A stretch of DNA of 64,000 nucleotides from a virus (taxonomy: Duplodnaviria; Heunggongvirae; Uroviricota; Caudoviricetes): the IMG/VR virus record IMGVR_UViG_3300034357_000765. The stretch is one strand, 5' to 3'. The stretch's first letter is position 1. Each line of letters begins with the position of its first letter. Position numbers and translations under genes: made by a program. The notes below the pieces were generated by a model. It was not told where the DNA came from. It did not search any database and saw nothing but the letters and a program-made list of their open reading frames with translations. Below are positions 6,422 to 56,217 of this stretch, piece after piece.

Positions 6422-7792
6422 ATGGAAGACTATAACAAAAATATGGGAAAACTGATAAATCTTAACGAAACCGAAAGTCAAACTTTGTTAGACGAAATTT
6501 TCGCAAACGAAATAGTTGTATTCGAAGACGTTCAAGGATCAAAAATCTGGGCAAACTGGAATGGAAAAGACTTTTCTATCAAACCAAAGTCTATAAGCAA
6601 TCAAGAAATAAATCTTGTCGATTTGGCAATGCAGAATTATTACAATCCTGCAATAGATTATCTTAACTCTTTAGATATAAGAGTAAAATCTCTTTTGAAC
6701 AAAAAATGGTGGTTTTGTTTTGAATACTTTCCGGACAACCAACCAGCAAACATTGAATATGAAAGAATGCCTAAGAACAAACTTGTTTTAAGTGCAATCT
6801 ATAAAAGTGGAAAGTATGATTTTATCATAGATGAGATAGACGAATATGCTAGATTGTTTGATGTAGATATGCTTCCTATAATGTTTCAAGGTGTTTTATC
6901 AGAAAGAATGATAGAAGCCATTAAATACTTCTTAAATACAAGTGAAGAAGATTTAGAATATGTTTTTGGAGAAAAAAACTTTGCTTTCTTCTTTTACAAA
7001 ATACTTAATCCTGCATCAGAAAACTCTTTCTTAATGGAAGACGAATTCCAATCAAACATTGAAAAGTTAATAATTCGATCAAAAATAAAAGATGTTTCTT
7101 TTGAACTTTTAAACCCTCTCTACACAAGAGTAAGTGATTCAAATAGCACCGACTTTGTTGAAATATACACTTTGATATTAGTGAACTTTTTGAATTTCTG
7201 TCAATCGATAGACTTAAAGGATATAAAAATGAAAGGAGAGAAAAAAGATGACATCTATATCTATTTGATGTGTAAACTTTTTAACTTCTATATTGGAGAA
7301 CTAAAACAAGACTTATTAGATTTTGAGTTTATAGTTCCTGAATTTTTTGATAAAGACAAGTTTAAGATAAACACAGAATTGATTGAAAATAAACTTACAA
7401 AAGAATACATAAACGAAAGTCCAAAACTTGAGTACATATTCAAAGTGATATTAGGTTCTTTTAACAAAAAAAGAAAAAAACCAATCGGAGTTTTTACAGA
7501 AAATACCGTAAAACTTTTAAATCTTTTCATAGATGATATCAGTAAACACATTGATAACTATCTAAATAAGATTCATGAACTTGAACTTACGAGGTCTGGT
7601 TTATTAGACTTTGGTGATTTCTTCGATATTCAATACGATACTGATGCGGAAGGTGAAGTTTATCCTGACGTATATGATGAGTTCACAAAAGGTGCTGCGA
7701 CAGACAAAAAGAAAAAAGGTAAAGGTGGTAAAGGACCTGCGATTCCTGAAGAACAAGTAGTAGAAGAAGAACCTAAAGCTCCAATCAAATAA
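6422..7792 (+). CDS. Hypothetical protein with degenerate RNA-ligase/nucleotidyltransferase-like N-terminal domain
   Basis: VFEDVQGSKIW (motif-I-like but lacking Lys), CFEYF, LPIMFQG, IEKLIIR. Start uncertain (6332, 6422 or 6443). Confidence 0.5.
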   Translation: MEDYNKNMGKLINLNETESQTLLDEIFANEIVVFEDVQGSKIWANWNGKDFSIKPKSISNQEINLVDLAMQNYYNPAIDYLNSLDIRVKSLLNKKWWFCFEYFPDNQPANIEYERMPKNKLVLSAIYKSGKYDFIIDEIDEYARLFDVDMLPIMFQGVLSERMIEAIKYFLNTSEEDLEYVFGEKNFAFFFYKILNPASENSFLMEDEFQSNIEKLIIRSKIKDVSFELLNPLYTRVSDSNSTDFVEIYTLILVNFLNFCQSIDLKDIKMKGEKKDDIYIYLMCKLFNFYIGELKQDLLDFEFIVPEFFDKDKFKINTELIENKLTKEYINESPKLEYIFKVILGSFNKKRKKPIGVFTENTVKLLNLFIDDISKHIDNYLNKIHELELTRSGLLDFGDFFDIQYDTDAEGEVYPDVYDEFTKGAATDKKKKGKGGKGPAIPEEQVVEEEPKAPIK

Positions 7793-8007
7793 TGAAATCT
7801 ATAGATTTAAAGATGACCTCTGTTGAAGTAAAAACAGAGACAAGACCTTTGCGTGCTCAATGGACCCGCGAGCTAGCGACTGATTTACAGAGTATGTATG
7901 GTATGGACCATGTCTCTGAAATAGAGGCAACTCTTATGAAAGAATGGAAGGATATTAACAGAACTTCAGGTAGAAGATCAAAGGTTCGCAAAATTTACGA
8001 ATCATGA
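7792..8007 (+). CDS. 71-aa stand-alone fragment resembling the T4-type major capsid protein (gp23) central segment
   Basis: DLKMTSVEVKTETRPLRAQWTRELATDLQSMYGMDHVSEIEATL aligns by eye to gp23 KSRQLKAAYSIELAQDLRAVHGMDADAELSGIL; C-terminal RRSKVRKIY tag. Confidence 0.65.
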   Translation: MKSIDLKMTSVEVKTETRPLRAQWTRELATDLQSMYGMDHVSEIEATLMKEWKDINRTSGRRSKVRKIYES

Positions 8008-9275
8008 AAACATATCCTGAACTAGTGGATATAAAATGTATGAGTGAAAATTCAATCGTACCATTATTCAAAATCAGTGGCTATTCCAATATCAGAAAGA
8101 AACTAGAAGACAAAAAACACAGTCTTCAGTTTTTACCAGAATCGATGGAGGAATTTTCAAAAAACAAAAACTTCGAATATAAAGGTCAAAAACTAAAGTC
8201 TTCATATGCTTTAGATATAGTCCACAACTTAATACTGAAATACTATTTCAAAAAAGACAACAGATTTCATCTCATGTCCACCATTCTCAAAGAGAAGTAC
8301 GGACACCTATACAACTACTATATGGACTATCTAATAGAAACGAAGACCATATCTATGGTCGCAAACTATAGAGCAGGTAGAAACGCCAAAGTCTATAAGA
8401 TATCAGAACACATACTTAAAGGAAAAATAAAGAGATACGTCAACAAAGACACGACTCTTTTGAAGAAGTACAAAAACAAGGTATCACAAGTAGAAGAAGA
8501 TGGAATAAAAAATGGATTAATAGACGCAGATATAAAAGCGATGCTTGTAGACGACCTATTCTATACAAAGATAGAGTTTGATAGAGCCATATTCTATTTA
8601 GATAATCTTCAACACAACGACACTGACATATATAACAGAAACAGATACTCTGTTGAATGTGTGAACGACAAACATATATTCTATCATTTTGATAGTTACG
8701 GAAGAATGCACACAAACTTCACTATATTAAAATCTTTCATTAGAAAGAACTGTCTTTTATTGGATGGTGAGGAAACACATGAGATTGACATAAAGAATAG
8801 TCAACCTTTGTTCCTTACTAAGATAATAGCAGATAGTAACTCTAAATGGGTAAACACCGAGGAGTTTGAGCTATTTAGAGACCTTACGGTAAACGGAAAC
8901 TACTACCAACACGTAATGAATCATATGAAGACAAATGATCGTCCTATGGTCAAAGAAATGACGTACAAAGTCTTATTTGGAAGAAACGTTCACAATAGCA
9001 AAGCAGACAAAGTGTTCAGAGAACTATTTCCAACTATACACAATTTCATAAAACTATACAAAAAGGAAAAAGGAGACTATAAAGTTTTGGCATATGAACT
9101 ACAAAAAGCAGAGTCTAATTTAATCTTCAATAAAATAATACGAGAAGTTAAAAATTCTTTTCCAGAAATAAAAATAGTTACTGTTCACGATAGTATAATA
9201 ATACCAAGAAATAAAAGAGATGAGGTCGAAGCCATATTCAAAACAAAGCTTTATGAGGAATTTCACCTTTTTTAA
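8004..9275 (+). CDS. Minimal family-A DNA polymerase / single-subunit-RNAP-like palm protein
   Basis: DSYGRMHT, motif A-like EIDIKNSQP, motif B-like RPMVKEMTYKVLFG, motif C TVHDS; no exonuclease motifs recognised. Confidence 0.6.
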   Translation: MKTYPELVDIKCMSENSIVPLFKISGYSNIRKKLEDKKHSLQFLPESMEEFSKNKNFEYKGQKLKSSYALDIVHNLILKYYFKKDNRFHLMSTILKEKYGHLYNYYMDYLIETKTISMVANYRAGRNAKVYKISEHILKGKIKRYVNKDTTLLKKYKNKVSQVEEDGIKNGLIDADIKAMLVDDLFYTKIEFDRAIFYLDNLQHNDTDIYNRNRYSVECVNDKHIFYHFDSYGRMHTNFTILKSFIRKNCLLLDGEETHEIDIKNSQPLFLTKIIADSNSKWVNTEEFELFRDLTVNGNYYQHVMNHMKTNDRPMVKEMTYKVLFGRNVHNSKADKVFRELFPTIHNFIKLYKKEKGDYKVLAYELQKAESNLIFNKIIREVKNSFPEIKIVTVHDSIIIPRNKRDEVEAIFKTKLYEEFHLF

Positions 9276-9320
9276 AATAATATATAAGATATACCAGAAG
9301 GAAATATTTATATATAAACT

Positions 9321-9878: not shown

Positions 9879-9901
9879 AAAGCACTCAAATGAGTGCTTT
9901 T
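9877..9901. terminator. Bidirectional intrinsic terminator
   Basis: AAAAGCACTCA-AA-TGAGTGCTTTT between convergent genes. Confidence 0.85.
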
Positions 9902-9902
9902 C

Positions 9903-10637
9903 TTATTTTACAGTAAACCATACATATTGTTTTTCCCAATGTGGAGTTTCTTTTAGACAATAAGTATTATCTGGTATACTTTTTACACATATAATACCAC
10001 TCTGATCCATTCTACCACCACGAGCGACTATAATCTTATTTGGACTAATGTTTTCATCTAATATAATAGAAATAGTTCCAAGCATAAAATCTGATTGACT
10101 ATCGAACCAATGCCAGTTATTTCTACCGACAATCACTGCGGTTCCTGGACCCATTCTTCCTTCTGCTGCGATAAAGTTGGATGCGTGTGCAATCTTTGTT
10201 ATAATCCTTCTGAAGTTTATTGCGTTGTTTTCCTCTAATGTACTATGTGGGTCGTTCATCGCCACATAATCAAGACTTATTGGATAATGGTGTTTTTGTT
10301 TTGTGTTACTTTCTAAAAATGTGATTACATTATTGTATAAACTCTCATCATCTACAAAAGGATTTGATTGAGTATTTAGAGTCATGATCTTTGGAGATAT
10401 TGTCGCAATAGATCCTTCTTCTGAAGATATTGTCTCAGATGTGTAGTCTCCGTTTTCGTCTACCTCATCTAAAACGGTGTCTATTGTAAGATTTCTTTTC
10501 TTTCTCTTTACCTCTCTTCTAGTCTCGTCGTCTTCTACTATCATATCCATATACATCAATTGGGCAGTTGGACCTATACTCTTATTTTCTTCAGAGTAGT
10601 TACAGATTGATTTTAGTTTATCATTAAAAGTTGTCAT
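9903..10637 (-). CDS. Protein containing a gp23-like major capsid segment
   Basis: NFRRIITKIAHASNFIAAEGRMGPGTAVIV resembles gp23-family FKGLLFQIERDANAIAQRTRRGKGNIII; N-terminal KRNLTIDTVL tag. Confidence 0.5.
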   Translation of the reverse strand: MTTFNDKLKSICNYSEENKSIGPTAQLMYMDMIVEDDETRREVKRKKRNLTIDTVLDEVDENGDYTSETISSEEGSIATISPKIMTLNTQSNPFVDDESLYNNVITFLESNTKQKHHYPISLDYVAMNDPHSTLEENNAINFRRIITKIAHASNFIAAEGRMGPGTAVIVGRNNWHWFDSQSDFMLGTISIILDENISPNKIIVARGGRMDQSGIICVKSIPDNTYCLKETPHWEKQYVWFTVK

Positions 10638-11385: not shown

Positions 11386-11422
11386 ATTATATGATTTTTT
11401 TATTATTTTTATGAAATAATCG

Positions 11423-11430
11423 TATCTTTG
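11423..11430 (+). promoter_or_regulatory. Bacteroidota sigma70 -7 promoter element
   Basis: TATCTTTG matches TAnnTTTG, 24 nt upstream of ATG 11455. Confidence 0.6.
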
Positions 11431-11454
11431 TTTATATTATTAGATATAATATTT

Positions 11455-11853
11455 ATGAAATATGTGGGAAGAACAGAAAAAGTTTCTTTTCCTGAGCTTG
11501 GAATAGAAACAACAGACGCGAAAATAGACACAGGTGCCTATGGAAACGCTCTTCATGTAGATGAGATTTTCATAAAAGATGACAAACTTTTCTTTATAAT
11601 AGACGAAAAGGAATATGTGTATGATAAGTACAAAACCATAGTGGTGCGTAACTCTTTTGGTAAGAAACAAAAAAGATTTTCTATAATATCAAAGATGGTT
11701 TTAGGTGAAAAAAGTTATAAGGTTCATATATCCTTAACTAATAGGAAAAAAATGAAATATCCAATGTTGATTGGAAGAAGATTTCTGAACAAGTTTAAAT
11801 ATATGGTGAACGTAAGAAAAAAGAACATAAATGATAGAGCTAAAGCGTTGTAA
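11455..11853 (+). CDS. RimK/LysX-associated retropepsin-like aspartic protease
   Basis: AKIDTGAY (D-T-G) and PMLIGRRFL. The start was reassigned to ATG 11455 because the TTG at 11428 overlaps the promoter. Confidence 0.75.
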   Translation: MKYVGRTEKVSFPELGIETTDAKIDTGAYGNALHVDEIFIKDDKLFFIIDEKEYVYDKYKTIVVRNSFGKKQKRFSIISKMVLGEKSYKVHISLTNRKKMKYPMLIGRRFLNKFKYMVNVRKKNINDRAKAL

Positions 11854-12388
11854 TTATTTTACTGGAGACATAGCATGTGTTTCAAGTGCAGTAAGTTCTA
11901 TTGTTAAATTTTTGGAATTAGATGGTAGAAATCCTATATTGTTCACATCACCAAAACCAACTTCTTCAGGAAAAAACATCACAAATCTTATTTATTACAT
12001 ATCACCACAGATAACTTTTAATGACTTTGAAGATTTTAAATCTAAGATTGAAGATCCCGCAAATAGATTCAGAGTTAATCTAATGATATTTGACTTTTGG
12101 ACTCTTAGTCGGGGTCTTATACCTAAATACAAAGAACTAATCGACGAGTTAGGTATAGACTATATAATAGTAGCAAAAGAATACATCTATAAAGACTCTG
12201 AAGATGTTGCAGACTTTCATGTAAAGTCAGAATACAAAGATTCGGCACCTAATAGTATTTCTGGCTATATGGCCACTAGATCAGAAATTTGGCTAACAAA
12301 TAAAATTGATGGTTGGACAGCAACACTTGATTCTTTAAAGACTGGATATATCCGTGATAAAAAAATCGACGATATTTTCAACAAATAA
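11831..12388 (+). CDS. Hypothetical protein with C-terminal IRDKKIDDIF tag
   Basis: 185-aa ORF, overlaps the upstream gene as in an operon. Confidence 0.7.
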   Translation: MIELKRCNYFTGDIACVSSAVSSIVKFLELDGRNPILFTSPKPTSSGKNITNLIYYISPQITFNDFEDFKSKIEDPANRFRVNLMIFDFWTLSRGLIPKYKELIDELGIDYIIVAKEYIYKDSEDVADFHVKSEYKDSAPNSISGYMATRSEIWLTNKIDGWTATLDSLKTGYIRDKKIDDIFNK

Positions 12389-12423
12389 TTGTTTAAAACT
12401 TTTCTAAATAAGAAAAAGTTCCT

Positions 12424-12431
12424 TATCTTTG
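12424..12431 (+). promoter_or_regulatory. Bacteroidota sigma70 -7 promoter element
   Basis: TATCTTTG upstream of the peptidase gene. Confidence 0.6.
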
Positions 12432-12468
12432 TACCATAATAGTTTATAATAACTTAATATTATTCGAA

Positions 12469-13602
12469 ATGAGAATAACTAAAAAATTCCTAGCACTTAC
12501 AAAGTTTACATATCCACACGGAAAAGAGCATCAATTGTTGCACCAACTTCCAGAAGGATATCAAGAAGATGGCTTAGGAAACTACTACATTCAAATAGGT
12601 GAAACTCCTTCCACGATGTTTACTTGTCACTTAGACACCGCGGACAAAACACAAACTAAAGTAAAACACGTCTTTGATGGAAACATCATTCGTACTGATG
12701 GAAAGTCTATCTTAGGAGCAGACGATAAAGCTGGTATGACTGTTATACTTTATATGATACAAAAGCAAGTTCCAGGACTTTACTACTTTTTCATTGGTGA
12801 AGAAGTTGGTTGTATCGGATCTAGAAAACTTGCAGACACTTGGACAAAAACAGAATTTTCTAAATACATCAAAAAAGTGGTTTCTTTCGACAGACGAGGA
12901 ACAGACTCTATTATCACATACCAAATGTTTGGAAGATGTTGCTCTGACGAGTTTGCACAAGAGTTAGGAAACAGAATGAATGCGACAGGAAACAAAATGA
13001 AGATGGTGTTAGACGACACTGGTATCTTAACTGACTCTGCAAAGTTTGTAAAGTTAGTTCCAGAGTGTACTAACATATCTGTAGGATACCAAAACGAACA
13101 CACTGGAAAAGAAAGTCAAGATATCGAGTTCTTACGAAGATTGTGTAATACGGTTGTTAAAGTAGATTGGGAAACTCTTCCTGTAAAAAGAGATGTTTTA
13201 GAAGAAGACGATTATGATCACTATTATAGTGGATATGGATACGAATCTATGAGTAAGTACAACTATGGGAACTATCAAGAAAACCCAGAGTGGCAAGAAG
13301 AAAACTATACACACGTTCTTTTGGATGGTAAGACTAAAAGAGTTTATATTGCAACTTCTCGTATTGATGAAGAAAAGGCTGAAATCTACAAATGGTTAGG
13401 TACTCAAGTAGAATACTATGATGTACAAAGTATCGTGTGGAATGGACACAGCCTATATTTTGAAGCAAAATCAGGTAAACTTGAGTTTGTTGGAAACAGA
13501 ACAGATTTGATGGAAATGATTGAAGAGTTGAAAGCTATTCCAAAAAACAAAATATCTGAAGTTCTTCCTGGTAAGAAAAAAACATTTATGAATGTATTAT
13601 AA
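12469..13602 (+). CDS. M20/M28-family zinc peptidase
   Basis: TCHLDT, LGADDKAG, GEEVGCIGS, NISVGYQNEHT metal-ligand motifs. Confidence 0.85.
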   Translation: MRITKKFLALTKFTYPHGKEHQLLHQLPEGYQEDGLGNYYIQIGETPSTMFTCHLDTADKTQTKVKHVFDGNIIRTDGKSILGADDKAGMTVILYMIQKQVPGLYYFFIGEEVGCIGSRKLADTWTKTEFSKYIKKVVSFDRRGTDSIITYQMFGRCCSDEFAQELGNRMNATGNKMKMVLDDTGILTDSAKFVKLVPECTNISVGYQNEHTGKESQDIEFLRRLCNTVVKVDWETLPVKRDVLEEDDYDHYYSGYGYESMSKYNYGNYQENPEWQEENYTHVLLDGKTKRVYIATSRIDEEKAEIYKWLGTQVEYYDVQSIVWNGHSLYFEAKSGKLEFVGNRTDLMEMIEELKAIPKNKISEVLPGKKKTFMNVL

Positions 13603-15641: not shown

Positions 15642-15649
15642 TATATTTG
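15642..15649 (+). promoter_or_regulatory. Bacteroidota sigma70 -7 promoter element
   Basis: TATATTTG, 15 nt upstream of ATG 15665. Confidence 0.6.
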
Positions 15650-15664: not shown

Positions 15665-16111
15665 ATGAGCAAAAGACTAAATAACTCCGACGCGTTAAAG
15701 TTTATCTTCGCAGGTAACTCAACATTTACTTTTTTGAATAGTGAAACTGAAAACAGATTCACTTATCGAGTTAAAAAAGCAAAAGATAGTAATCTTTTCT
15801 TTGTTAGTGTTTTAACTGGTCCCGAGCAGTATTCCTACTTAGGAACAGTTTCTAACGGAATCTACAAACATGGTAAAAAATCCAACTTCACAGGTGCTCA
15901 ATCTGAGAAGGTTTTCTCTTATGTTCTTAATAAACTCAAAAAAGAATCTTTACCAGAGTGTATCGAAATATGGCATGAAGGTAAATGTGGTAAATGTAAT
16001 AGACCACTTACCGTTCCTTCTTCTATTGAAACTGGAATAGGACCGGAATGTTTCAAAACTCTTTCTAAGGCAGAAAAAAGAGATATATTTTTAACTTCAA
16101 TTTTAGGATAA
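15665..16111 (+). CDS. DUF6011-like Zn-binding protein
   Basis: GKCGKCNRPLTVPSSIETGIGPEC. Confidence 0.75.
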   Translation: MSKRLNNSDALKFIFAGNSTFTFLNSETENRFTYRVKKAKDSNLFFVSVLTGPEQYSYLGTVSNGIYKHGKKSNFTGAQSEKVFSYVLNKLKKESLPECIEIWHEGKCGKCNRPLTVPSSIETGIGPECFKTLSKAEKRDIFLTSILG

Positions 16112-16593
16112 TGGTAGCTTTTTTAACTTTTCTTCAATTTTTCGCATTGATTTTTGGATTCATATATTCAACCAGGCGAATCAAAAAGTACAAGTCAATA
16201 ACATTCGAAGTAAGAAGAGGCGAGAAGTGTTATAGCTGTTCTACCGATGTTAATCACGATGATTTAGATTACACAGACTTTGCTGCTATGTTACAAAAAG
16301 AAGATTTTAAACTTTGTGTTGCTTGTAAAAGAGAAGAAAGTTTGGATCAGTTTGTAAAATCAGGATTTCCTGATGCTACTCGAATAAACAAATTTAAAAA
16401 GTATCTTTTTTCAAAGAAATCTGATAGATTAGTTTGGTACTTTCTAATCGCTATATTGACGAGCATAGCTATTGAGTTTATTACTAGATTTGTTTTTGAT
16501 ATAAAAGTATTCTGGTTTTTGACACCAATATTAAATATAATATATTGGAGTATTTTTTGTTATAAATCCAAAATAACATATATAAAAGAATAA
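16111..16593 (+). CDS. Membrane protein with CxxC...CxxC
   Basis: Hydrophobic N-terminus and two C-terminal hydrophobic helices; KCYSC and LCVAC. Confidence 0.65.
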   Translation: MVAFLTFLQFFALIFGFIYSTRRIKKYKSITFEVRRGEKCYSCSTDVNHDDLDYTDFAAMLQKEDFKLCVACKREESLDQFVKSGFPDATRINKFKKYLFSKKSDRLVWYFLIAILTSIAIEFITRFVFDIKVFWFLTPILNIIYWSIFCYKSKITYIKE

Positions 16594-16600
16594 AAATTGC

Positions 16601-16608
16601 TATATTTG
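16601..16608 (+). promoter_or_regulatory. Bacteroidota sigma70 -7 promoter element (probably leaderless transcript)
   Basis: TATATTTG ends 4 nt before ATG 16613. Confidence 0.6.
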
Positions 16609-16612
16609 TAGT

Positions 16613-17143
16613 ATGTTTAAAGTAAAAGGTATATTAGAATTTGATCCTGTTGACGTGTCTAAAAAACATGCACAACAATCGACTTGGAAAAGAGTCGCAA
16701 TGGTTCGTTTCTATGAAGACGATACCTGTAAATACTACAAATGGTTATTAGAACAAAGATTTGGTCTTCGTATTCCAGACACAAACGTGTTTGAATGGAG
16801 AGGAAGACTTAACGATCCTGTTCGTGGAACTCACGTCACTGCAATAAACGATATTGTAGATGATGAAATCTATTTACAAGCTAAAGATATGTTCCACGGA
16901 AAAGAAGTGGAAATCACATACGATCCAACTCTTATCAGGTGTAATACTAAAGGTGATAAGATGTGGTGGCACATAAAAGTATATTCTGACGATATTATGA
17001 ATATACGAACTGCTATGGGTTTAGGAACACCATTTCACAGTCTTCACATGACTATTGGTTTGGTAAATCCGACTTTTATAGAACATAATGAATGGGTTGT
17101 AAAGAGCTGTGAGAAATTAGGAATGTATTTACCAATAAAATAA
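16613..17143 (+). CDS. 2H phosphoesterase-like protein
   Basis: Two H-x-T motifs, GTHVTAI and SLHMTIG, about 80 aa apart. Confidence 0.6.
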   Translation: MFKVKGILEFDPVDVSKKHAQQSTWKRVAMVRFYEDDTCKYYKWLLEQRFGLRIPDTNVFEWRGRLNDPVRGTHVTAINDIVDDEIYLQAKDMFHGKEVEITYDPTLIRCNTKGDKMWWHIKVYSDDIMNIRTAMGLGTPFHSLHMTIGLVNPTFIEHNEWVVKSCEKLGMYLPIK

Positions 17144-17148
17144 ATATA

Positions 17149-17499
17149 ATGAAAACTTATCAAGAAGTAAAAAACGACGAACTGATTGTGACCAGGTACT
17201 ATTCTAAAAGAAAATTAGATAGGTATATTTGGTTCTGTAAGGTTCTTAGAAAGTTGTTCAGTGAGACGTTCTTTTGGATTGTGTCCTTTATTCCATTTCT
17301 TGCGATACCTTCAGTATTCATATACTTAGGTTTTTTCAAATTAAACATAATGACGGTTTCTATGTTTACCGTACTGCACTTTCTTTATTGGTTTCTAAAG
17401 GGAAGAAAGGAAGCCATCAAGCTAATAGACGAGAATCTACCAGAGTTAGATCTTAGTATTGAGGTATTACAGGATATTAGAAAGGAAAGACATGGATGA
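17149..17499 (+). CDS. Small membrane protein
   Basis: Two hydrophobic segments (FWIVSFIPFLAIPSVFIYLGFF; MFTVLHFLYWFL). Confidence 0.65.
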   Translation: MKTYQEVKNDELIVTRYYSKRKLDRYIWFCKVLRKLFSETFFWIVSFIPFLAIPSVFIYLGFFKLNIMTVSMFTVLHFLYWFLKGRKEAIKLIDENLPELDLSIEVLQDIRKERHG

Positions 17500-17845
17500 T
17501 TTTTTTGACAGTTTCAAAAAGCCAGAAAAGAAATATGATCATAAGGTTCGAGTGGTTCACTTTAAAAAGGAGCCATTCGATATTTATATTGGACGAATGC
17601 AGGGTGGTAAGTACAATAAGTGGGCTTATCCAAAAGAACTCAGAAATAGTTTTCCACCAGGAACTCCAAGAAAAGATATTGTTGCTGCTTATGAAGAGTA
17701 TCTTCTTTCAAATGAAGAACTTATGAGCTCTCTTTACGAACTGAAAGATAAAGTACTTGGTTGCTGGTGTAAAAATGAAGGTGGAGGTGGAAAGTCTTGT
17801 CACGGAGATATATTAGTAAAGTGGGTAAAAAAGAATTGTAACTGA
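17492..17845 (+). CDS. DUF4326-like protein
   Basis: VVHFKKEPFDIYIGR...ELKDKVLGCWC...CHGDILV. The start was taken at the internal ATG. Confidence 0.8.
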   Translation: MDDFFDSFKKPEKKYDHKVRVVHFKKEPFDIYIGRMQGGKYNKWAYPKELRNSFPPGTPRKDIVAAYEEYLLSNEELMSSLYELKDKVLGCWCKNEGGGGKSCHGDILVKWVKKNCN

Positions 17846-18099
17846 TGTTAAGAATACATAGTAAAGTAAACACACCATATGGTGAAGGAATATTGGTTTC
17901 TATGGAGACTGAATTCAATGGGCTATATATTACATACGAACGAACAAAATGTGTTGTTTGGTTTGGAACAGAGAATCCCGGTACAAGTGATGCTGGTCAT
18001 GGTAGATGGGTAACTAGAGAAATATCACTAAGAGAACTCATTGAGCTAAACCAAGACTTGATAAGAAACGAAAAAATAAACGACATATTAGATGCCTGA
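17845..18099 (+). CDS. Small protein with C-terminal IRNEKINDIL tag
   Basis: 84-aa ORF; SH3/KOW-like VNTPYGEGILV start. Confidence 0.7.
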   Translation: MLRIHSKVNTPYGEGILVSMETEFNGLYITYERTKCVVWFGTENPGTSDAGHGRWVTREISLRELIELNQDLIRNEKINDILDA

Positions 18100-18880
18100 A
18101 TTAGCAGAATTAAAAATAATGGCTGACTATATAAACGTCAATGCCAAAGAAAAGAAATTCAACAAGATATACGATGTAGCGAAAGGCAATATTCCTTCGG
18201 AATTTACACTTGCAGATGGAGATTTCCGTCTTGAATCTGAATCTAATGGTAAAGAATTAGTATTAAAAGTATATCATGATGTTGCATCTTTTAAGATATC
18301 CGTCTTTATGGGAATGTCAGGGAACTGGCTCTGGATACCCACCAAAGATTGGACTGATAGAAAGTTTGTCAGAATGCGAATGGATACAACCGATGGCTGG
18401 TCTTTACTTCTTTACGGCCTCTATATGGGACCAAAATACAAAGTAGGTGGATTTGCTACAAAAAGAGGTCCGGACCCAACTAAAGAGTTTGAAACCTTTA
18501 AAACCAACGTCGTAGACAATCTTCATCTGAAGCCTTTCAGTAAACCAATCTGTGAAGCTCTTTTAGAACAGAAGTACTTTAACGGGATTGGAAACTATTT
18601 GAGATCGACGATTCTTTACTATCTTGATGTTGATCCTTTTGAGGAAGCTCGCTTAGTCATAAAAAGAAATCCAGAGATACTTGACATGTGTAGAGATATT
18701 CCGATGAAAGCTTACCAACTCAATGGTGGTCAGCTACAAGATTGGAAGAATCCGTTCGATACAGACTATGAAGAGTTCCTCAAATGGGTATTCTATCAGA
18801 AAGGCTTATCATGTAGAGACAACACCGGAAGAACTTTTTGGTATAACCCTAAATGGAAACAAAATTGTCCTTATAAATAA
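18092..18880 (+). CDS. nei: Fpg/Nei DNA glycosylase (NEIL1-like, zincless finger)
   Basis: N-terminal MPELAE (catalytic Pro2/Glu3), H2TH motif FNGIGNYLRSTIL, C-terminal RDNTGRTFWY with no four-Cys finger. Confidence 0.85.
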   Translation: MPELAELKIMADYINVNAKEKKFNKIYDVAKGNIPSEFTLADGDFRLESESNGKELVLKVYHDVASFKISVFMGMSGNWLWIPTKDWTDRKFVRMRMDTTDGWSLLLYGLYMGPKYKVGGFATKRGPDPTKEFETFKTNVVDNLHLKPFSKPICEALLEQKYFNGIGNYLRSTILYYLDVDPFEEARLVIKRNPEILDMCRDIPMKAYQLNGGQLQDWKNPFDTDYEEFLKWVFYQKGLSCRDNTGRTFWYNPKWKQNCPYK

Positions 18881-19437
18881 TGTTTGAAAATAACTTCAAT
18901 ATAATAGTAGGTAGTAATGCTACGTGGAAAAGCTCTGCGTTGCATGCACTTGCTTATGATATGAAGTCTCAACTAAACATGAAAATAATATTTTTGGCAG
19001 CTACAAACGAATTTGAAGAGAAAACACACTTTCTTAATCAAAGATACGAGTTATGTCGATTTTTATCCTCTGACGACGAAAACAATATAAATACACTCAA
19101 AGTAATAGAAGAGATTTCTTTAAAAGATGGAATAGACTTTATATTCATAGACGATATTGATTATCTATATGATTATCTATTTCCAAATAACGACACCACA
19201 ACTAAGAAATATATCAACTTTTTAGATAAGATTCCGGTAAGAAAGATAGCTACATGTAGTGATAGTTCCTCTATTCCTTTATTTAATTTTTCTGAGGAAA
19301 TCACCGATTCAAAAAACTATTTTCTTCAAACTAAATATAACAAAGGACGTTCTTATGCTATAATAAACGATGTAATCGCAAACGACTTCATCAAAGCTTT
19401 CATAAGAGATGAAAAAATAAAAACACTATTAGAATGA
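18880..19437 (+). CDS. Degenerate P-loop protein with C-terminal IRDEKIKTLL tag
   Basis: IIVGSNATWKSS (Walker A-like) and FIFIDD (Walker B-like). Confidence 0.6.
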   Translation: MFENNFNIIVGSNATWKSSALHALAYDMKSQLNMKIIFLAATNEFEEKTHFLNQRYELCRFLSSDDENNINTLKVIEEISLKDGIDFIFIDDIDYLYDYLFPNNDTTTKKYINFLDKIPVRKIATCSDSSSIPLFNFSEEITDSKNYFLQTKYNKGRSYAIINDVIANDFIKAFIRDEKIKTLLE

Positions 19438-20276
19438 TAAAAGCAGACTGGTACTATATCCAAAACCTAAGAAAGATTTTAAAAGAAGGATCTTGGGATG
19501 AAAATCCTCGTCCAAAATGGGCTGACGGAACTCCGGCAAACTCAAAGTTTATAACAGGAGTATTCGAAGAATATGATATTTCAAAAGGTGAGTTTCCAAT
19601 CACTACTTTGAGAAACACCGCAATCAAAACAGGAATCAGAGAGATTCTTTGGATCTATCAAAAACAATCTAACTCTTTGGTTGAAGCTAGAGAGATGGGA
19701 ATCAACTGGTGGGATGAATGGAATGTAGGTGATGACACAATCGGTCAAAGATATGGTGCTACAGTAAAAAGATATGATTTGATGAACAAGCTTTTGAACG
19801 GATTGAAGAACGATCCATTTTCTAGAAGACACATCATCGATATGTACCAATATACTGATTTAGAAGAAACTGAAGGATTGTTTCCTTGTGCATACAAGAC
19901 TACTTGGTCTGTAAGAAAAATAGAAGGTGAATACTATTTAGATATGACTTTAGATCAGCGTTCTAATGACTATCTAATGGCAGGTTATATCAATAAGATT
20001 CAGTATGTTGCACTTCAAATGATGGTTGCACATCACGTAGGATATAAAGTAGGTAAGTTCTGTCATTTAGTTCAAAACCTACACGTTTATGATAGACACG
20101 TAGACTCAATACCAGAAATATTGGGTAGAACTAACCTTACTGATGTAAATCCTTCTATAGAGTTATTAATCATAACAACAAATCGTGACTTTTACTCTAT
20201 AACCATAGACGATTTTAAAATATCTGGGATTGAAGGAATACAAAAACTTTCGTCAAAACTAGAAATCGCTATTTAA
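19434..20276 (+). CDS. thyA: Thymidylate synthase
   Basis: TTLRNTAIKTGIREILW, LFPCAY (catalytic Cys), QRSNDY, NLHVYDRH. Confidence 0.95.
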   Translation: MIKADWYYIQNLRKILKEGSWDENPRPKWADGTPANSKFITGVFEEYDISKGEFPITTLRNTAIKTGIREILWIYQKQSNSLVEAREMGINWWDEWNVGDDTIGQRYGATVKRYDLMNKLLNGLKNDPFSRRHIIDMYQYTDLEETEGLFPCAYKTTWSVRKIEGEYYLDMTLDQRSNDYLMAGYINKIQYVALQMMVAHHVGYKVGKFCHLVQNLHVYDRHVDSIPEILGRTNLTDVNPSIELLIITTNRDFYSITIDDFKISGIEGIQKLSSKLEIAI

Positions 20277-20292
20277 AAATAATAAAAAAAAC

Positions 20293-46739: not shown

Positions 46740-47421
46740 ATTTATCTATATTTTCGAACCACCAGTTGAAATAAACAAAGTTGTCTCCTACTAAGTTATA
46801 AGTCTCACTTTCGTGTCGTACTACGATTCTATTATCATATGCTCTTACAACCTCTATTTCAATACCTTTTTTCATTTCTAACTGTCTTCCTGTTTCTATT
46901 GAGAAACAGATTACTTCATCATTTATCAATTTGTATTTTCCTGGTTCTGGTTTCATCCAAGCTTTTATAGTCTTTATGACCAAACCTTTTATTTTTATTA
47001 TCCATTCTTTTGCTTGATATAGGTCATAATCTTTAAACACTTCTGATTCAAGTTCTGGATCTGAGGTAAGTATTCCATTTATGACTCCCCAATATTCGTT
47101 GTCTCCAATAACAAATGTTACATACACATCGTAGTTTATACCATTTACCTTTGTTATTCTGAGTATTTTCATACTCTTTATGTCTTGATTCTCTAATGCA
47201 AGCTTACCTCTAAGATTTTTGTATGCATTAGAACCAGTTAGATTCCAAAGTATATCATTTACTCTTGACATTGCTTGTCTTATCGCATCCTGGTGTTTAT
47301 CAAATGCATTTGTTGATAGAGAAGGATCATCAACATGCATAGATGCTTGTACCGAATCTGGGTTCAACCTTTGCATATTAAACTCTGTGAATTCTAGAAT
47401 TAGTTTATTTCTCTTTTTCAT
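46738..47421 (-). CDS. Candidate head-internal protein
   Basis: N-terminal KLILEFTEFN motif. Confidence 0.7.
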   Translation of the reverse strand: MKKRNKLILEFTEFNMQRLNPDSVQASMHVDDPSLSTNAFDKHQDAIRQAMSRVNDILWNLTGSNAYKNLRGKLALENQDIKSMKILRITKVNGINYDVYVTFVIGDNEYWGVINGILTSDPELESEVFKDYDLYQAKEWIIKIKGLVIKTIKAWMKPEPGKYKLINDEVICFSIETGRQLEMKKGIEIEVVRAYDNRIVVRHESETYNLVGDNFVYFNWWFENIDK

Positions 47422-47454
47422 ATTAATATATATATTAAAATCTAATATTTAAAA

Positions 47455-47775
47455 ATGAAAAGAATCAAAAGATTTAACGAAAGTGAACAAGTTGACGTAT
47501 CGACAGAAAGAGTTGATGAGATATTAGTCGATTTGAAAGAACTTACATCTACTTTAGATGATAAGAAAAAGATGATAGATTCTTTGATTAGCGAGTTAAA
47601 CAACTATAAAAACAAATCCGACAAAGGAAACGATCAAATAGACGATTCAATCGCGGCCCTTCAGGTTATAATGAAAGATTTAGAAAACTCTACAGACAAA
47701 ACAGACACCGTTATTGGAAACCTTCAGAGTTACAACGACGATGGTAGAAAATATCTTTATACTGAAAACAAATAA
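47455..47775 (+). CDS. Small coiled-coil candidate head-internal protein
   Basis: MKRIKRFNESE; heptad pattern. Confidence 0.7.
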   Translation: MKRIKRFNESEQVDVSTERVDEILVDLKELTSTLDDKKKMIDSLISELNNYKNKSDKGNDQIDDSIAALQVIMKDLENSTDKTDTVIGNLQSYNDDGRKYLYTENK

Positions 47776-47796
47776 TACTATACGGATATAATAAGT

Positions 47797-47949
47797 ATGG
47801 CAGTGATTAATGATGATGGTGACTATCTAAGTCCGATATTCGAAATAGATTGGAAAGCCATACGAAACCTTTTAAGAAAAGAAAAAATAGAAAGAATATA
47901 TGGCGATTTGGGACAATCACTCGGAAACGACGAAGAAAACAATTCTTGA
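47797..47949 (+). CDS. 50-aa micro-ORF with LRKEKIERIY tag
   Basis: Manual translation: MAVINDDGDYLSPIFEIDWKAIRNLLRKEKIERIYGDLGQSLGNDEENNS. Confidence 0.55.
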   Translation: MAVINDDGDYLSPIFEIDWKAIRNLLRKEKIERIYGDLGQSLGNDEENNS

Positions 47950-48031
47950 AGGAATTAGAGCATTTTCTAAGATGTTGAGAAAAGACAAACGAAAAGAAAA
48001 GATAAACAATGTTTTGTGCTCCAGATCCTAA
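47900..48031 (+). CDS. 43-aa micro-ORF with KRKEKINNVL tag
   Basis: Manual translation: MAIWDNHSETTKKTILEGIRAFSKMLRKDKRKEKINNVLCSRS. Confidence 0.5.
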   Translation: MAIWDNHSETTKKTILEGIRAFSKMLRKDKRKEKINNVLCSRS

Positions 48032-48041
48032 TCTAGTCGTA

Positions 48042-48182
48042 ATGGGAGGCCCTTCCAGTAATAAATGGGAAAATATGAAATTCAACCCCAATATCGGAAC
48101 AATGTTTAGGTCCCAGAAAAGAATCAAAAAGATAAGAAAGATATTTGATGGGAAAATTCAAAAAGAAGAAGTTCGGTTCTGA
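48042..48182 (+). CDS. 46-aa micro-ORF with KRIKKIRKIF tag
   Basis: Manual translation: MGGPSSNKWENMKFNPNIGTMFRSQKRIKKIRKIFDGKIQKEEVRF (alternative start at 48075). Confidence 0.5.
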   Translation: MGGPSSNKWENMKFNPNIGTMFRSQKRIKKIRKIFDGKIQKEEVRF

Positions 48183-48252
48183 GTTTAGAAATATACTTAG
48201 AATAATAAAAATAGAAAGAATATTCAATGCTGATAGGAAAGAAAGGAAATAG
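48148..48252 (+). CDS. 34-aa micro-ORF with LRIIKIERIF tag
   Basis: Manual translation: MGKFKKKKFGSEFRNILRIIKIERIFNADRKERK. Confidence 0.5.
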   Translation: MGKFKKKKFGSEFRNILRIIKIERIFNADRKERK

Positions 48253-48460
48253 TCCGGGAGTAGTCTGGGCTCCTTATCTAATACAAAGTACAACACCTGC
48301 AATAGTAGAAAGCAATTTCTCACCAAGAATGACACTTAAAAGTAGATATTCAACTACAACCGTAAACAACGGATTCTATATGGATTTCTGGATGAAGAAC
48401 TGGAGAAGAAAATCAAGAATAGAAAAGATATACAAAATAGAAAAGCCTACTGAAGAGTAG
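48227..48460 (+). CDS. 77-aa fragment resembling the gp23 major capsid C-terminus, with RKSRIEKIY tag
   Basis: GKKGNSPGVVWAPYL..IVESNFSPRMTLKSRYS aligns by eye to gp23 GYKG..AGIYYAPYV..DPKNFQPVMGFKTRYG. Confidence 0.65.
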   Translation: MLIGKKGNSPGVVWAPYLIQSTTPAIVESNFSPRMTLKSRYSTTTVNNGFYMDFWMKNWRRKSRIEKIYKIEKPTEE

Positions 48461-48466
48461 GCTTTT
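48441..48466. terminator. Bidirectional intrinsic terminator
   Basis: AAAAGCCTACT-GAAG-AGTAGGCTTTT. Confidence 0.85.
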
Positions 48467-48483
48467 CTGATATAATAATACTT

Positions 48484-49026
48484 TTATTTAGTATATTTAA
48501 GCTTATAAAGAGTTTTGTAAACCAGAACAACAATATCATCTATTACACTATGTAGGTGAGTATCTTCTATATTGATACATTTTCTTTCTTCTTTGACAAA
48601 TCTTGCTAACTCATTAAAATATTCAATAGTATCTTTTGATTTAGTATCTTTAGTATCAATCACATCATACTCTTCGATAATACCATATTGACCTTGATAT
48701 GTCTCAATCACATCATCGATTAAACTTAAAACACCATCGTAGTATTCACCTAATGCAATATGTTTTGCATGTGAACCCATATCACCATTTACTTGTAAGT
48801 GATAAATGTGTGCCATTTCTCTAGATTCAAACAATTTAGAGAAAAATTTACCTGGGTGTGAACCTTCTCCTAATATTTGTGGTCTTTCAACACCACTTTC
48901 TTGTTCTGCCTGAGCTTGAGCCTGTACTTGTGCACCTACTGCTTGTGGTAGGTTTGCTACAGACATTTCGTCTTGCTCGAATATTCTTCTTATTTTAGGT
49001 TTTTTTAAGTCTGAAAATTTCTTCAT
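48484..49026 (-). CDS. Ferritin-like helical-bundle protein
   Basis: AHIYHLQ...HAKHIALGEYYD...DDVIETYQG...LYKLKY pattern. Confidence 0.6.
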   Translation of the reverse strand: MKKFSDLKKPKIRRIFEQDEMSVANLPQAVGAQVQAQAQAEQESGVERPQILGEGSHPGKFFSKLFESREMAHIYHLQVNGDMGSHAKHIALGEYYDGVLSLIDDVIETYQGQYGIIEEYDVIDTKDTKSKDTIEYFNELARFVKEERKCINIEDTHLHSVIDDIVVLVYKTLYKLKYTK

Positions 49027-49047
49027 CTGTTTTTTGATTAGTTTTTA

Positions 49048-50424: not shown

Positions 50425-50436
50425 AAACAACGATAT

Positions 50437-54302: not shown

Positions 54303-54303
54303 T

Positions 54304-54333
54304 AAAAAAAACCAGTCTTTTAAGACTGGTTTT
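54304..54333. terminator. Bidirectional intrinsic terminator
   Basis: A-run + CCAGTCTT-TT-AAGACTGG + T-run. Confidence 0.85.
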
Positions 54334-55045: not shown

Positions 55046-55125
55046 AGTTTATATATCTTCTTATCATGTTTCTATTTTCTTTATAATCATATTATATTTT
55101 TAATATATAATGTATTATAAATACA

Positions 55126-55581
55126 TTGATAGTTATGATAGAATCATATGAAATAAGCTTGTTACCTTGTGATAAGTTTGTAGTGAAATATGGATTCACC
55201 GATATGGATGGAAATGATTATTTGGTTCAATTCAAAAACGATTCGACAGGACCTAACAACTCTATTTTAGGTAGTTCTTACGAACTTACTTATTTTGTTT
55301 GGGATGAGGATATTTTGGATTGGAGCGTTGATAAGATTGTTAATTCTAGCATATTTAGAGTTACAAAGACTATTTTTGGTGATGTTGTTACTTCTTTTTT
55401 GAATTCGACACCTTGGGTAAAGACTTTAAGATTTGAAGGAATCTCTAAGGAAACAGAAGGTAAATATGTAATAACAAAAAGAACAAAACTTTATACTAGA
55501 TATTTGAAAAACAATCCTATAGAAGGATATAGATTAGAAAGTGACATGAATAGGATAAACCTAATAAAAACAATAAGTTAA
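55126..55581 (+). CDS. Hypothetical protein
   Basis: About 150-aa ORF; start uncertain. Confidence 0.65.
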   Translation: MIVMIESYEISLLPCDKFVVKYGFTDMDGNDYLVQFKNDSTGPNNSILGSSYELTYFVWDEDILDWSVDKIVNSSIFRVTKTIFGDVVTSFLNSTPWVKTLRFEGISKETEGKYVITKRTKLYTRYLKNNPIEGYRLESDMNRINLIKTIS

Positions 55582-55583
55582 AC

Positions 55584-55952
55584 ATGCAAAGACCAGAAGT
55601 AAGGCTTATACAAGGCCAACAAGTTGAGACAAACGAAAATCCTAACATTGATAGTTGGGAAGCAGAGCAGCTTTTGAGAAAGTATGGATATCAAAATACA
55701 CAATATTCTACACATCAAGAACCTACTACTCATGTAGATAACGGATTAACATTTGAACAAATGTTGGCACAGGAAGAATCTAAGAGAAAAGAAGAGGAAA
55801 TGAGAAGAAGGCAACAAATGAATGGTCCAAAACCTATTTCGTTTGATGGTGGATATGGATATCATACAGAAACTAAATATGGATCTGATGAAGATAGTGG
55901 TTATGGATTTAAGATACAAATAACAAGTGATATGCCAATCCCTAAATATTAA
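55584..55952 (+). CDS. Hypothetical protein
   Basis: 122-aa ORF. Confidence 0.65.
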   Translation: MQRPEVRLIQGQQVETNENPNIDSWEAEQLLRKYGYQNTQYSTHQEPTTHVDNGLTFEQMLAQEESKRKEEEMRRRQQMNGPKPISFDGGYGYHTETKYGSDEDSGYGFKIQITSDMPIPKY

Positions 55953-56217
55953 GCATTTTTAGTTTTAAGTCTCTTAAATGAGGTGTTACGATATTTCGAT
56001 CCTTTTCATCTAATATTTCCATTCTATGGTTTACTAAATTTAGAAAACTTTCTATACTTAAATCTTCTTCGAATACTATAGAATATCCCAATTCTTTTTT
56101 AACACCTCTTATCCATGCCGCGATTTCGTAGTACTGTGATTTTATAGCCATATTCATTATGAAATCTATAAACTCATAATACTCTTTATACTTATCTTCA
56201 TCTATGAAGTCTTTCAT
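55942..56217 (-). CDS. Small protein with C-terminal LRDLKLKML tag
   Basis: 91 aa; TATCTTTG on the minus strand (56222-56229) immediately upstream. Confidence 0.65.
   Translation of the reverse strand: MKDFIDEDKYKEYYEFIDFIMNMAIKSQYYEIAAWIRGVKKELGYSIVFEEDLSIESFLNLVNHRMEILDEKDRNIVTPHLRDLKLKMLNI

What the first reader, a model, noticed from the sequence alone, without database searches (positions are those of the whole stretch)
7792..56217. A second, mutually exclusive tag R-x-x-K-I-x-x-I-(L/F/Y) on 12-14 small unrelated proteins
Seen: IRDKKIDDIF (12388), IRNEKINDIL (18099), IRDEKIKTLL (19437), RRSKVRKIY (8007), RKSRIEKIY (48460), LRDLKLKML (55942), KRNLTIDTVL (N-terminal part of 9903-10637), LRKEKIERIY, KRKEKINNVL, KRIKKIRKIF and LRIIKIERIF (47797-48252). 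Weaker matches: KRDIFLTSIL (16111) and KREESLDQF (within 16111-16593). It is mostly at the C-terminus, forms an amphipathic helix, and never occurs on proteins with the capsid-targeting-like tag. Inference: a phage-wide docking, localisation or degron code that recruits diverse proteins to one partner (membrane, replication/assembly compartment or protease). I know of no assigned function for it.
Basis: partly seen in the sequence, partly recalled or inferred. Interest (0 to 1): 0.75.

Follow-up and report, generated by a model that had tools for sequence, protein, structure and literature searches.

The report
Shared C-terminal tag, early phage proteins
Roughly one protein in seven to nine in two related huge phages, mostly small, unrelated to each other and apparently made early in infection, ends in the same ten-residue helical peptide, which is selected as a peptide, was found only in phage DNA, and looks like an address label whose reader is still unknown.

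Summary
The cited peptides are all present, and the motif is far above chance (9 observed against 0.5 expected, 8 within 15 residues of a C-terminus).

(A) The main tag is h-R-[DEN]-x-[KR]-[IL]-x-x-[IL]-[LGI] at the extreme C-terminus. The window has three clear carriers (ORFs ending 12388, 18099, 19437) and two degenerate ones (16111, 55942). In related huge phages it ends 109 of 992 genes (635 kb genome) and 81 of 525 genes (344 kb contig). The bodies are unrelated (67-69 clusters) and have no Pfam family.

Synonymous codons are random wherever no downstream start abuts, so the peptide is selected, not the DNA. The tag is absent from 185,579 cellular genomes. Tagged genes avoid the phage-specific promoter box, while genes with the N-terminal capsid-targeting-like tag sit behind it. 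This explains the mutual exclusivity.

(B) A second, basic tail (h-R-K-x-K-I-x-K-I-F) sits on tiny proteins, including two capsid-protein fragments and a conserved array of five overlapping mini-ORFs.

(C) Two internal matches are not tags.

The partner is unidentified. A docking or degron handle on early proteins is the best reading.

The parts
12350..12379 (+). Tag A (IRDKKIDDIF, 2 residues before the stop) on the 185-aa protein 11831-12388
   Evidence: kept in L002/L003 through synonymous and K-to-R changes, with no adjacent downstream start; the orthologue in LR745206 keeps RRDKKINDIF with a 5-residue extension.
18061..18090 (+). Tag A (IRNEKINDIL) on the 84-aa protein 17845-18099
   Evidence: the orthologue in L002 keeps VRNEKIDDILN* although a convergent gene follows instead of a same-strand start.
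19402..19431 (+). Tag A (IRDEKIKTLL) on the 185-aa RecA/Rad51-like protein 18880-19437
   Evidence: (A1): I175, R176, D177 and K179 are invariant down to 36-40% identity; the model has a RecA-like core, and the tag is the distal, lower-confidence half of the last helix (167-184).
16076..16105 (+). Probable degenerate tag A (KRDIFLTSIL-G*, F in place of K4) on the DUF6011 protein 15665-16111
   Evidence: C-terminal, R-D and spacing kept, conserved in L002, L003 and LR745206, and in the same operon behind a host-type promoter box.
55951..55977 (-). Possible off-register variant of tag A (LRDLKLKML-NI*) on the 91-aa protein 55942-56217
   Evidence: C-terminal with R-D-x-K-L, but one residue short before the last hydrophobic pair; a host-type box lies at 56222-56229. 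No orthologue was found, so its status is open.
7972..7998 (+). Tag B (RRSKVRKIY) ending the 71-aa capsid-protein fragment 7792-8007
   Evidence: Gp23 family, 38.4 bits; a family of 49 clusters, nearly all 41-76 aa, with tail consensus R-[KR]-x-[KS]-[IV]-x-[KN]-[IL]-[FYL]; the tail lies over the native capsid helix SKQIVAKIF.
47797..48460 (+). Array of five overlapping mini-ORFs (starts 47797, 47900, 48009, 48148, 48227; each next ORF in the +1 frame). Each ends in tag B (47872-47901, 47987-48016, 48117-48146, 48196-48225, 48407-48433)
   Evidence: all five stay open in L005, L006, L008 and L009. The junction DNA is nearly invariant, while the ORF bodies vary with in-frame indels; the last ORF derives from the capsid protein's C-terminal part (z=20); phage-type box at 47423-47432.
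10470..10499 (-). Not a tag: internal KRNLTIDTVL in the capsid-protein paralogue 9903-10637
   Evidence: 188 residues from the C-terminus; the protein aligns with the lineage's major capsid protein at z=15.6.
16327..16353 (+). Not a tag: internal KREESLDQF in the membrane protein 16111-16593
   Evidence: 79 residues from the C-terminus, without the K-I or I-L positions.
15642..15649 (+). Host-type -7 promoter box (TATATTTG) heading the operon 15665-20802 that holds three tag A carriers. Similar boxes lie at 11423-11430, 12424-12431 and 16601-16608
   Evidence: The TAnnTTTG consensus of Bacteroidota promoters is given in PMC6847099 and PMC9723704.

Best explanation
Tag A is a portable peptide of about 10-15 residues that forms a self-capped amphipathic helix at the C-terminus. 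Its pattern is h-R-[DEN]-x-[KR]-[IL]-x-x-[IL]-[LGI], often preceded by an S/T-x-E-E cap. It is attached to about 11-15% of the proteins in two sampled relatives of this huge-phage lineage, mostly small, unrelated proteins encoded outside the phage-promoter class.

Its conserved residues (h0, R1, K4, I/L5, I/L8, position 9) lie on one helical face. I read that face as a docking surface for one common reader, so that the phage can handle its early proteome as a group.

Shown: the tag exists; it is selected at the protein level; it sits on unrelated bodies; it is phage-specific; it belongs to one promoter class; and its consensus shifts in concert between lineages.

Inferred: a common reader exists. 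My preferred version is timed removal or hand-off to an AAA+ protease (host, or the lineage's own ClpC-like/ClpP). Recruitment to a hub is about equally likely.

Tag B (h-R-K-x-K-I-x-K-I-F on proteins of 35-83 aa) is a separate, basic tail with a different promoter bias. In the mini-ORF array its coding DNA also serves as the A-rich leader of the next ORF.
For: - Enrichment and position: (109 of 992 genes against 0.24 expected; 81 of 525 genes).
- Arg is invariant without being presupposed: 72 of the 73 proteins ending h-G-h have R at -7.
- Conservation in orthologues down to 36% identity.
- The tag is kept where no downstream start abuts (33 of 81).
- Synonymous-codon agreement is 0.397 against 0.388 expected for such tags.
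- Bodies are unrelated: 67-69 clusters. No Pfam family in 30 of the largest carriers. In the window it sits on a RecA-like fold, on a DUF6011 protein and on an 84-aa protein with no family match.
- Phage-specific: the viral scan returned 60 stretches, and 59 of them hold 219 tagged ORF ends. The scan of 596 Gbp of cellular genomes returned 18 stretches, about the chance number. The only real ones are tiny phage-like contigs in MAGs.
- Promoter class: C-tag host-type versus phage box 37:1 and 56:14; N-tag 12:29 and 11:62; Fisher p=6e-11 and 1.5e-15.
- Concerted lineage shift at position 9: G in 53 of 78 tags against 18 of 109, p=3e-12.
Against: - No reader was identified and nothing was measured.
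- Clp unfoldase genes are present in all 7 near-complete tag-bearing records, but also in two distant huge phages that lack this tag pattern, so the link is not specific.
- No PDZ, S41 protease or phage clamp was found.
- The distance to the C-terminus varies from 0 to 7 residues, so a free carboxylate is not required. This fits a classical C-terminal degron poorly.
- The host-type box TAnnTTTG is short and common by chance (about 38 expected per strand of the window by my own composition estimate, against 55 and 52 found). 'Early' therefore rests mainly on depletion behind the specific phage box.
- Gene calls are greedy ORFs, and the patterns were defined after seeing the data.
- The genome-wide numbers come from relatives, not from the window's own genome.
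Confidence: 0.6

Rival explanations
1. The 'tag' is a by-product of DNA or RNA constraints. Either the A-rich, Shine-Dalgarno-less leader of the next gene is read in the upstream gene's frame, or a conserved DNA cassette at gene boundaries is used for regulation or recombination.
For: Eight of the 13 cited peptides end within -8 to +5 nt of the next ATG. Leaders are 55-70% A at -18 to -9, with no SD. Tags that overlap a start show excess codon agreement (0.513 against 0.389) and always use ATA for the last Ile (17 of 17). The junction DNA in the mini-ORF array is nearly invariant.
Against: 33 of 81 tags have no start within 20 nt and keep the same peptide with random synonymous codons (0.397 against 0.388; nucleotide identity 0.54 against 0.525 expected). 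Orthologues keep the tag when a convergent gene follows. The invariant R and the acidic position 2 are not explained by A-richness. This remains a real overlay for tag B junctions only.
Confidence: 0.04
2. The carriers are one large, fast-diverging paralogue family of small proteins. Only the last helix stays recognisable, so the shared tail reflects common descent, not a portable tag.
For: Carriers are small (median 95-102 aa), often in head-to-tail arrays, and a few clusters of 2-6 paralogues exist.
Against: There are 67-69 clusters among 81 bodies by BLASTP and phmmer. Carrier lengths run from 33 to 731 aa. The tag sits on a RecA-like fold, a DUF6011 protein and a capsid fragment. The tail consensus shifts in concert within a genome. 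That needs a shared constraint even under common descent.
Confidence: 0.12
3. The tail is a self-association handle. Tagged proteins dimerise, or bundle with each other, through the amphipathic helix.
For: The helix has a hydrophobic face flanked by complementary charges (R1/K4 against position 2 and often position 7 acidic).
Against: No positive evidence. Promiscuous pairing among about 100 different proteins would be hard to reconcile with specific functions.
Confidence: 0.1
4. The tail is a membrane-targeting amphipathic helix like those of MinD or FtsA.
For: It is C-terminal, short and amphipathic, with Lys/Arg present.
Against: An acidic or amide residue at position 2 is near-invariant and E7 is frequent. 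Mean net charge is only +0.5 to +1.2. The two basic residues sit inside the hydrophobic face. Sequence-specific invariance (R in 72 of 73) exceeds what lipid binding needs.
Confidence: 0.05
5. The last ten residues act as a nascent peptide in the ribosome tunnel, tuning termination or re-initiation at overlapping stop-start junctions.
For: In the 344 kb relative most tags end exactly one residue before the stop, and 40 of 81 are followed by a start within 5 nt of the stop or overlapping it.
Against: Tail length varies from 0 to 7 residues in the closest complete genome and between orthologues. 33 of 81 have no downstream gene nearby.
Confidence: 0.04

Closest known systems
T4 capsid targeting sequence (N-terminal about 10 residues of internal proteins IPI-III and Alt; from established knowledge)
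   Same: A short terminal peptide shared by otherwise unrelated phage proteins that sorts them as a group. This phage also has a look-alike N-terminal tag on a different gene set.
   Different: Tag A is C-terminal and sits on genes depleted behind the phage-specific promoter. There is no sign of cleavage and no link to head genes.
C-terminal degrons read by AAA+ proteases (ssrA ...LAA and the MuA-type RRKKAI signal for ClpX; from established knowledge)
   Same: A short C-terminal peptide, portable between proteins, ending in aliphatic residues. The lineage encodes its own ClpC-like unfoldase and ClpP.
   Different: The sequence is different. A helix with an invariant Arg and an acidic position 2 is unlike known ClpX motifs. 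It may lie up to 7 residues from the end. No degradation has been shown, and Clp genes are not specific to tag-bearing phages.
Clamp-binding C-terminal peptides (T4 gp43, gp33 and gp55 on gp45; PIP box Q-x-x-h-x-x-a-a; bacterial QL[SD]LF; from established knowledge)
   Same: One docking peptide at the C-termini of several unrelated proteins. The h-x-x-a-a spacing of the last five tag residues matches the PIP layout.
   Different: There is no conserved Q. The invariant R-[DE] is unknown in clamp motifs. No gp45-type or DnaN-type clamp was detected in three relative records, two of them at least 91% complete. There are about 100 carriers, most with no DNA-related annotation.
Encapsulin cargo-loading peptides and the P22 scaffolding protein's C-terminal coat-binding helices (from established knowledge)
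   Same: C-terminal peptides that dock cargo onto an HK97-fold shell protein. This is relevant to tag B, which ends capsid-protein fragments and tiny basic proteins near head genes and leans towards the phage-type promoter.
   Different: No binding to the capsid protein was tested. Tag A carriers belong to the wrong expression class for virion cargo.
Other shared terminal tags noted by this scan in other phages (e1-4772764, e1-831089, e1-173140, e1-3433680)
   Different: Different peptides and phage groups. Here the carrier count is large (81-109 per genome examined) and a promoter-class assignment is available.

Membership tests
ssrA-like / ClpX C-motif degron | Extreme C-terminal aliphatic tripeptide with a free carboxylate (L-A-A type), or the basic RRKKAI type | tested here: not met
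   Tags end in L-G-I or I-L-x with 0-7 further residues. No LAA ending and no basic run in tag A.
ssrA-like / ClpX C-motif degron | Tag-dependent degradation by a Clp or Lon protease | not testable with these tools
   Only the presence of phage ClpC-like and ClpP genes was shown, and that presence is not specific.
Sliding-clamp binding motif (QL[SD]LF, PIP box, T4 gp45 tails) | Conserved Gln followed by h-x-x-a-a or L-x-L-F | tested here: not met
   The position logo has R-[DEN] and no Q at the equivalent place. Only the h-x-x-a-a spacing fits.
Sliding-clamp binding motif (QL[SD]LF, PIP box, T4 gp45 tails) | A clamp encoded by the phage | tested here: not met
   PF09116 and PF00712 were not found in G001, G002 or G004, two of which are at least 91% complete. 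The host clamp was not tested.
T4-type capsid targeting sequence | N-terminal position on proteins expressed with head genes | tested here: not met
   Tag A is C-terminal, and its genes are rarely behind the phage-specific box (1 of 38 and 14 of 70 classified).
MinD/FtsA-type membrane-targeting helix | Net-positive amphipathic helix without sequence-specific invariant polar residues | tested here: not met
   R is invariant in 72 of 73. Position 2 is acidic or amide in 66 of 73. Mean charge is +0.5 to +1.2.
Gp23 major capsid protein family (for ORFs 7792-8007 and 48227-48460, the carriers of tag B) | Significant match to PF07068 or to the lineage's own capsid protein | tested here: met
   ORF 7792-8007: 38.4 bits against a cut-off of 24.4, and z=5.1 to the lineage's capsid protein. 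ORF 48227-48460: 22.1 bits (below cut-off) but z=20 to capsid residues 489-536. Both are fragments, not full capsid proteins.
Gp23 major capsid protein family (for mini-ORFs 47797-48252) | Significant similarity to the capsid protein | tested here: not met
   m1-m4 score no better than shuffles against both a cyanophage gp23 and the lineage's own capsid protein.

The most novel reading that the evidence does not exclude
Tag A is a phage-specific, lineage-tuned degron or hand-off code. About a hundred early proteins carry it so that one reader, possibly the phage's own N-domain-less ClpC-like unfoldase with ClpP, clears or re-routes the whole early proteome at the switch to late development. 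This would be a built-in timer not described for any phage.
Probability: 0.15. Interest if true: 0.9.

Novelty: new variant of a known kind. Interest (0 to 1): 0.78.

Why it matters
Huge phages are full of small proteins of unknown function. This work shows that 11-15% of the genes in two related huge-phage genomes share one C-terminal peptide. The peptide is under protein-level selection, was not found in cellular genomes, and belongs to one expression class.

That turns about a hundred orphan genes per genome into a single testable set. The tag predicts co-regulation or co-handling of early proteins. Its lineage-specific variants (…L-G-I against …I-L-x) give a handle for finding the co-varying partner.

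It would also be a ready-made portable tag for Bacteroidota biology.

Tried and rejected
- **Split genes or frameshift sites.** Rejected: the genes downstream of the tags at 18092 (Fpg/Nei, matched from residue 1) and 19434 (thymidylate synthase, full length) are complete.
- **Whole mini-ORF array as a decayed capsid gene.** Only the last ORF and the 7792 fragment are capsid-derived. m1-m4 are not significant.
- **Structured RNA under the conserved junctions.** No Rfam family in 47300-48600, only terminator-like noise.
- **Longer forms of the 71-aa capsid fragment.** None found.
- **Close relatives through the two 185-aa carriers in viral contigs.** None. tblastn of 185B against cultured phages: none. 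No cultured relative of the lineage.
- **Phage-encoded reader candidates.** No gp45-type or DnaN clamp, no PDZ_2, no S41 protease. Clp unfoldase and ClpP are present but not specific to tag-bearing phages.
- **Link to a phage tmRNA tag peptide.** ARAGORN finds no tmRNA in either whole relative. Earlier notes give no tag peptide for this lineage. Dropped.
- **Pfam on 30 of the largest tagged proteins.** No family.
- **Literature.** Four full-text searches and one review read found no description of such a tag.
- **Complex prediction of two different tagged proteins (185B with the 84-aa protein).** No verdict. It counts neither for nor against binding.
- **Whole genome of the window.** Not held. 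All genome-scale numbers come from relatives.


Full report
**What the window is.** The window is AT-rich (33% GC). It carries phage replication, nucleotide-metabolism and fibre genes.
- No gene has a Shine-Dalgarno sequence. Leaders are 55-70% A at -18 to -9, as described for Bacteroidota (PMC6847099).
- Its nearest public relatives are uncultured huge phages of 635-642 kb (75-79% identity in a helicase) and IMG/VR contigs up to 465 kb.
- No whole genome is held for the window.

**Checking the observation.**
- The loose motif occurs 9 times against 0.5 expected from within-protein shuffles, and 8 of the 9 lie within 15 residues of a C-terminus.
- A sharper pattern with an acidic or amide residue after the Arg was scanned in all six frames of the window and of related loci. 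It hits only 1-2 residues before the stop codons of real ORFs (16 of 16).

**First rival: a side effect of the next gene's leader.** Eight of the 13 peptides end within a few bases of the next ATG, and leaders here are A-rich. The peptide could therefore be the leader read in frame. Several results reject this for the main tag.
- Orthologues keep the tag when a convergent gene follows (L002). The 185-aa protein at 11831-12388 keeps it through synonymous changes with no adjacent start.
- In the family of the 185-aa protein at 18880-19437 the core I-R-D-x-K is invariant down to 36-40% identity.
- In a 344 kb relative, 33 of 81 tagged genes have no same-strand start within 20 nt. For these, synonymous-codon agreement is 0.397 against 0.388 expected from genomic usage, and nucleotide identity is 0.54 against 0.525 expected.
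- Only tags that overlap a start show extra codon agreement (0.513 against 0.389), and their last Ile is always ATA because it shares ATA-TGA with the next start.

The peptide is selected. The leader only biases codon choice.

**Scale.**
- In the 344 kb relative (G001), 81 of 525 ORF-called genes end in the tag. Without presupposing the Arg, 73 proteins end in h-G-h, and 72 of them have R exactly seven residues upstream.
- In the closest complete genome (LR745206, 635 kb), 109 of 992 genes carry it, against 0.24 expected.
- Carriers are small (median 95-102 aa, but up to 731 aa).
- With the tag removed, the 81 bodies fall into 67-69 clusters. Thirty of the largest carriers have no Pfam family.
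- In the window the tag sits on a RecA/Rad51-like fold, on a DUF6011 protein, on an 84-aa protein and on a 185-aa protein of unknown fold.

**Distribution.** A back-translated tag-plus-stop pattern of about 35 bits was used to scan public collections.
- In viral contigs it returned 60 stretches, probably the cap. Of these, 59 are AT-rich and together hold 219 tagged ORF ends in 490 kb.
- In 596 Gbp of cellular genomes it returned 18 stretches, roughly the chance number. Fifteen are not ORF ends. The real ones sit on tiny phage-like contigs binned into MAGs.
- The tag is therefore phage-specific and does not copy a host C-terminus.

**Expression class and exclusivity.** Genes were assigned to the nearest upstream promoter-like box in their operon.
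- C-tagged genes follow host-type TAnnTTTG boxes (PMC6847099, PMC9723704) rather than the phage-specific TTTAATATATA box 37:1 in G001 and 56:14 in LR745206.
- Genes with the N-terminal capsid-targeting-like tag show 12:29 and 11:62 (Fisher p=6e-11 and 1.5e-15).
- Double-tagged genes are depleted: 2 against 9.1 expected, and 5 against 11.4.
- In the window, the clear carriers lie behind boxes at 11423-11430 and 15642-15649, and the possible variant behind 56222-56229. The mini-ORF array lies behind a phage box at 47423-47432.
- The host-type box is short and frequent by chance. The firm part of this result is the depletion behind the phage box. 'Early' is an inference from it.

**Anatomy.**
- The conserved positions (h0, R1, K4, I/L5, I/L8, position 9) fall on two adjacent stripes of one helical face.
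- Upstream residues often form an S/T-x-E-E cap. I read the frequent …L-G-I ending as a glycine C-cap.
- Mean net charge is near +0.5 to +1.2.
- The model of the RecA-like carrier ends in one long helix, and the tag is its distal, less confident half.
- The ending differs by lineage on dozens of unrelated proteins at once: G at position 9 in 53 of 78 tags in G001 against 18 of 109 in LR745206 (p=3e-12). This argues for a shared constraint such as a common reader.

**The second tail.** Six of the cited peptides have a basic residue at position 2, which the main tag never has.
- In LR745206, 16 proteins of 35-83 aa end in h-R-K-x-K-I-x-[KN]-I-F followed by 2-7 residues, against 0.44 expected. 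Their promoter bias is 6 phage boxes to 2 host boxes.
- In the window this tail ends a 71-aa fragment of the major capsid protein (Gp23 family, 38.4 bits). That fragment belongs to a family of 49 clusters of about 65 aa with the tail conserved. The tail overlies the capsid protein's own helix SKQIVAKIF.
- The tail also ends each of five overlapping mini-ORFs at 47797-48460. These ORFs stay open in four relatives. Each next ORF starts in the +1 frame at the previous tail, and the junction DNA is almost invariant.
- The last mini-ORF derives from the capsid protein's C-terminal part (z=20). The first four are not detectably capsid-derived.
- A more distant relative has neither the array nor the basic tail on that fragment.
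- In these junctions, the peptide and the next ORF's leader probably constrain the same DNA.

**Reader.** None was found.
- No phage clamp, PDZ domain or S41 protease was detected.
- The lineage does encode a ClpC-like unfoldase lacking the usual N-domain, and a ClpP.
- All seven near-complete tag-bearing records have the unfoldase. But two distant huge phages without the tag pattern have one too, so this is a candidate only.
- I found no description of the tag in the searched literature.

**Verdict.** The docking or degron idea remains the best reading of the main tag, now tied to an expression class. The mechanism is not shown.

Noticed in passing
window 7792-8007 (+): A 71-aa ORF is a fragment of the T4-type major capsid protein (strand plus spine-helix region). 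It belongs to a diversified family of about 65-aa mini-proteins (49 clusters at 50% identity) kept as separate genes beside a full-length capsid gene elsewhere. Its function is unknown.
   Followed up: partly
window 47797-48460 (+): Five overlapping mini-ORFs (34-77 aa), each starting in the +1 frame at the end of the previous one. The array is conserved in at least four relatives with near-invariant junction DNA, and it follows a 106-aa coiled-coil protein that carries the N-terminal tag. The last ORF is a capsid-protein C-terminal fragment that overlaps a terminator hairpin.
   Followed up: partly
window 9903-10637 (-): A 244-aa protein is a paralogue of the C-terminal half of the lineage's major capsid protein (z=15.6). 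Relatives have similar 246-269-aa copies.
   Followed up: partly
window 11455-13602 (+): A RimB-like retropepsin-type peptidase (PF05618), then the tagged 185-aa protein, then an M28-like peptidase behind its own promoter-like box. Together this looks like a small peptidase neighbourhood.
   Followed up: no
G001 93802-95922 and 243344-244093 (loci L045, L053); LR745206 424469-424990, 123568-124089 and 75197-75721: The lineage encodes a two-ring ClpC-like unfoldase with a VGF loop and a UVR-like linker but no N-domain (an acidic N-terminal stretch instead), plus one or two canonical ClpP genes. In G001, 3 of the 5 tagged genes in the tag-poor first 140 kb lie within 2 kb upstream of a Clp gene.
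   Followed up: partly
LR745206, loci L164-L168: About 60 tRNA genes sit in a few clusters, including two that ARAGORN reads with irregular anticodon loops (L167 7364-7437 'gtag'; L167 19836-19923 'gt'). ARAGORN found no tmRNA.
   Followed up: no
L133 (contig of a Cloacimonadota MAG, 4.2 kb) and L130: Small AT-rich contigs binned into bacterial MAGs carry 9 and 2 tagged small ORFs. They are probably phage fragments mis-binned into those genomes.
   Followed up: no
window 20910-22436 (+): The family-B DNA polymerase ORF is only 508 aa (exonuclease domain and part of the polymerase domain). The same length is called in relative L002, so the polymerase may be split or unusually short.
   Followed up: no
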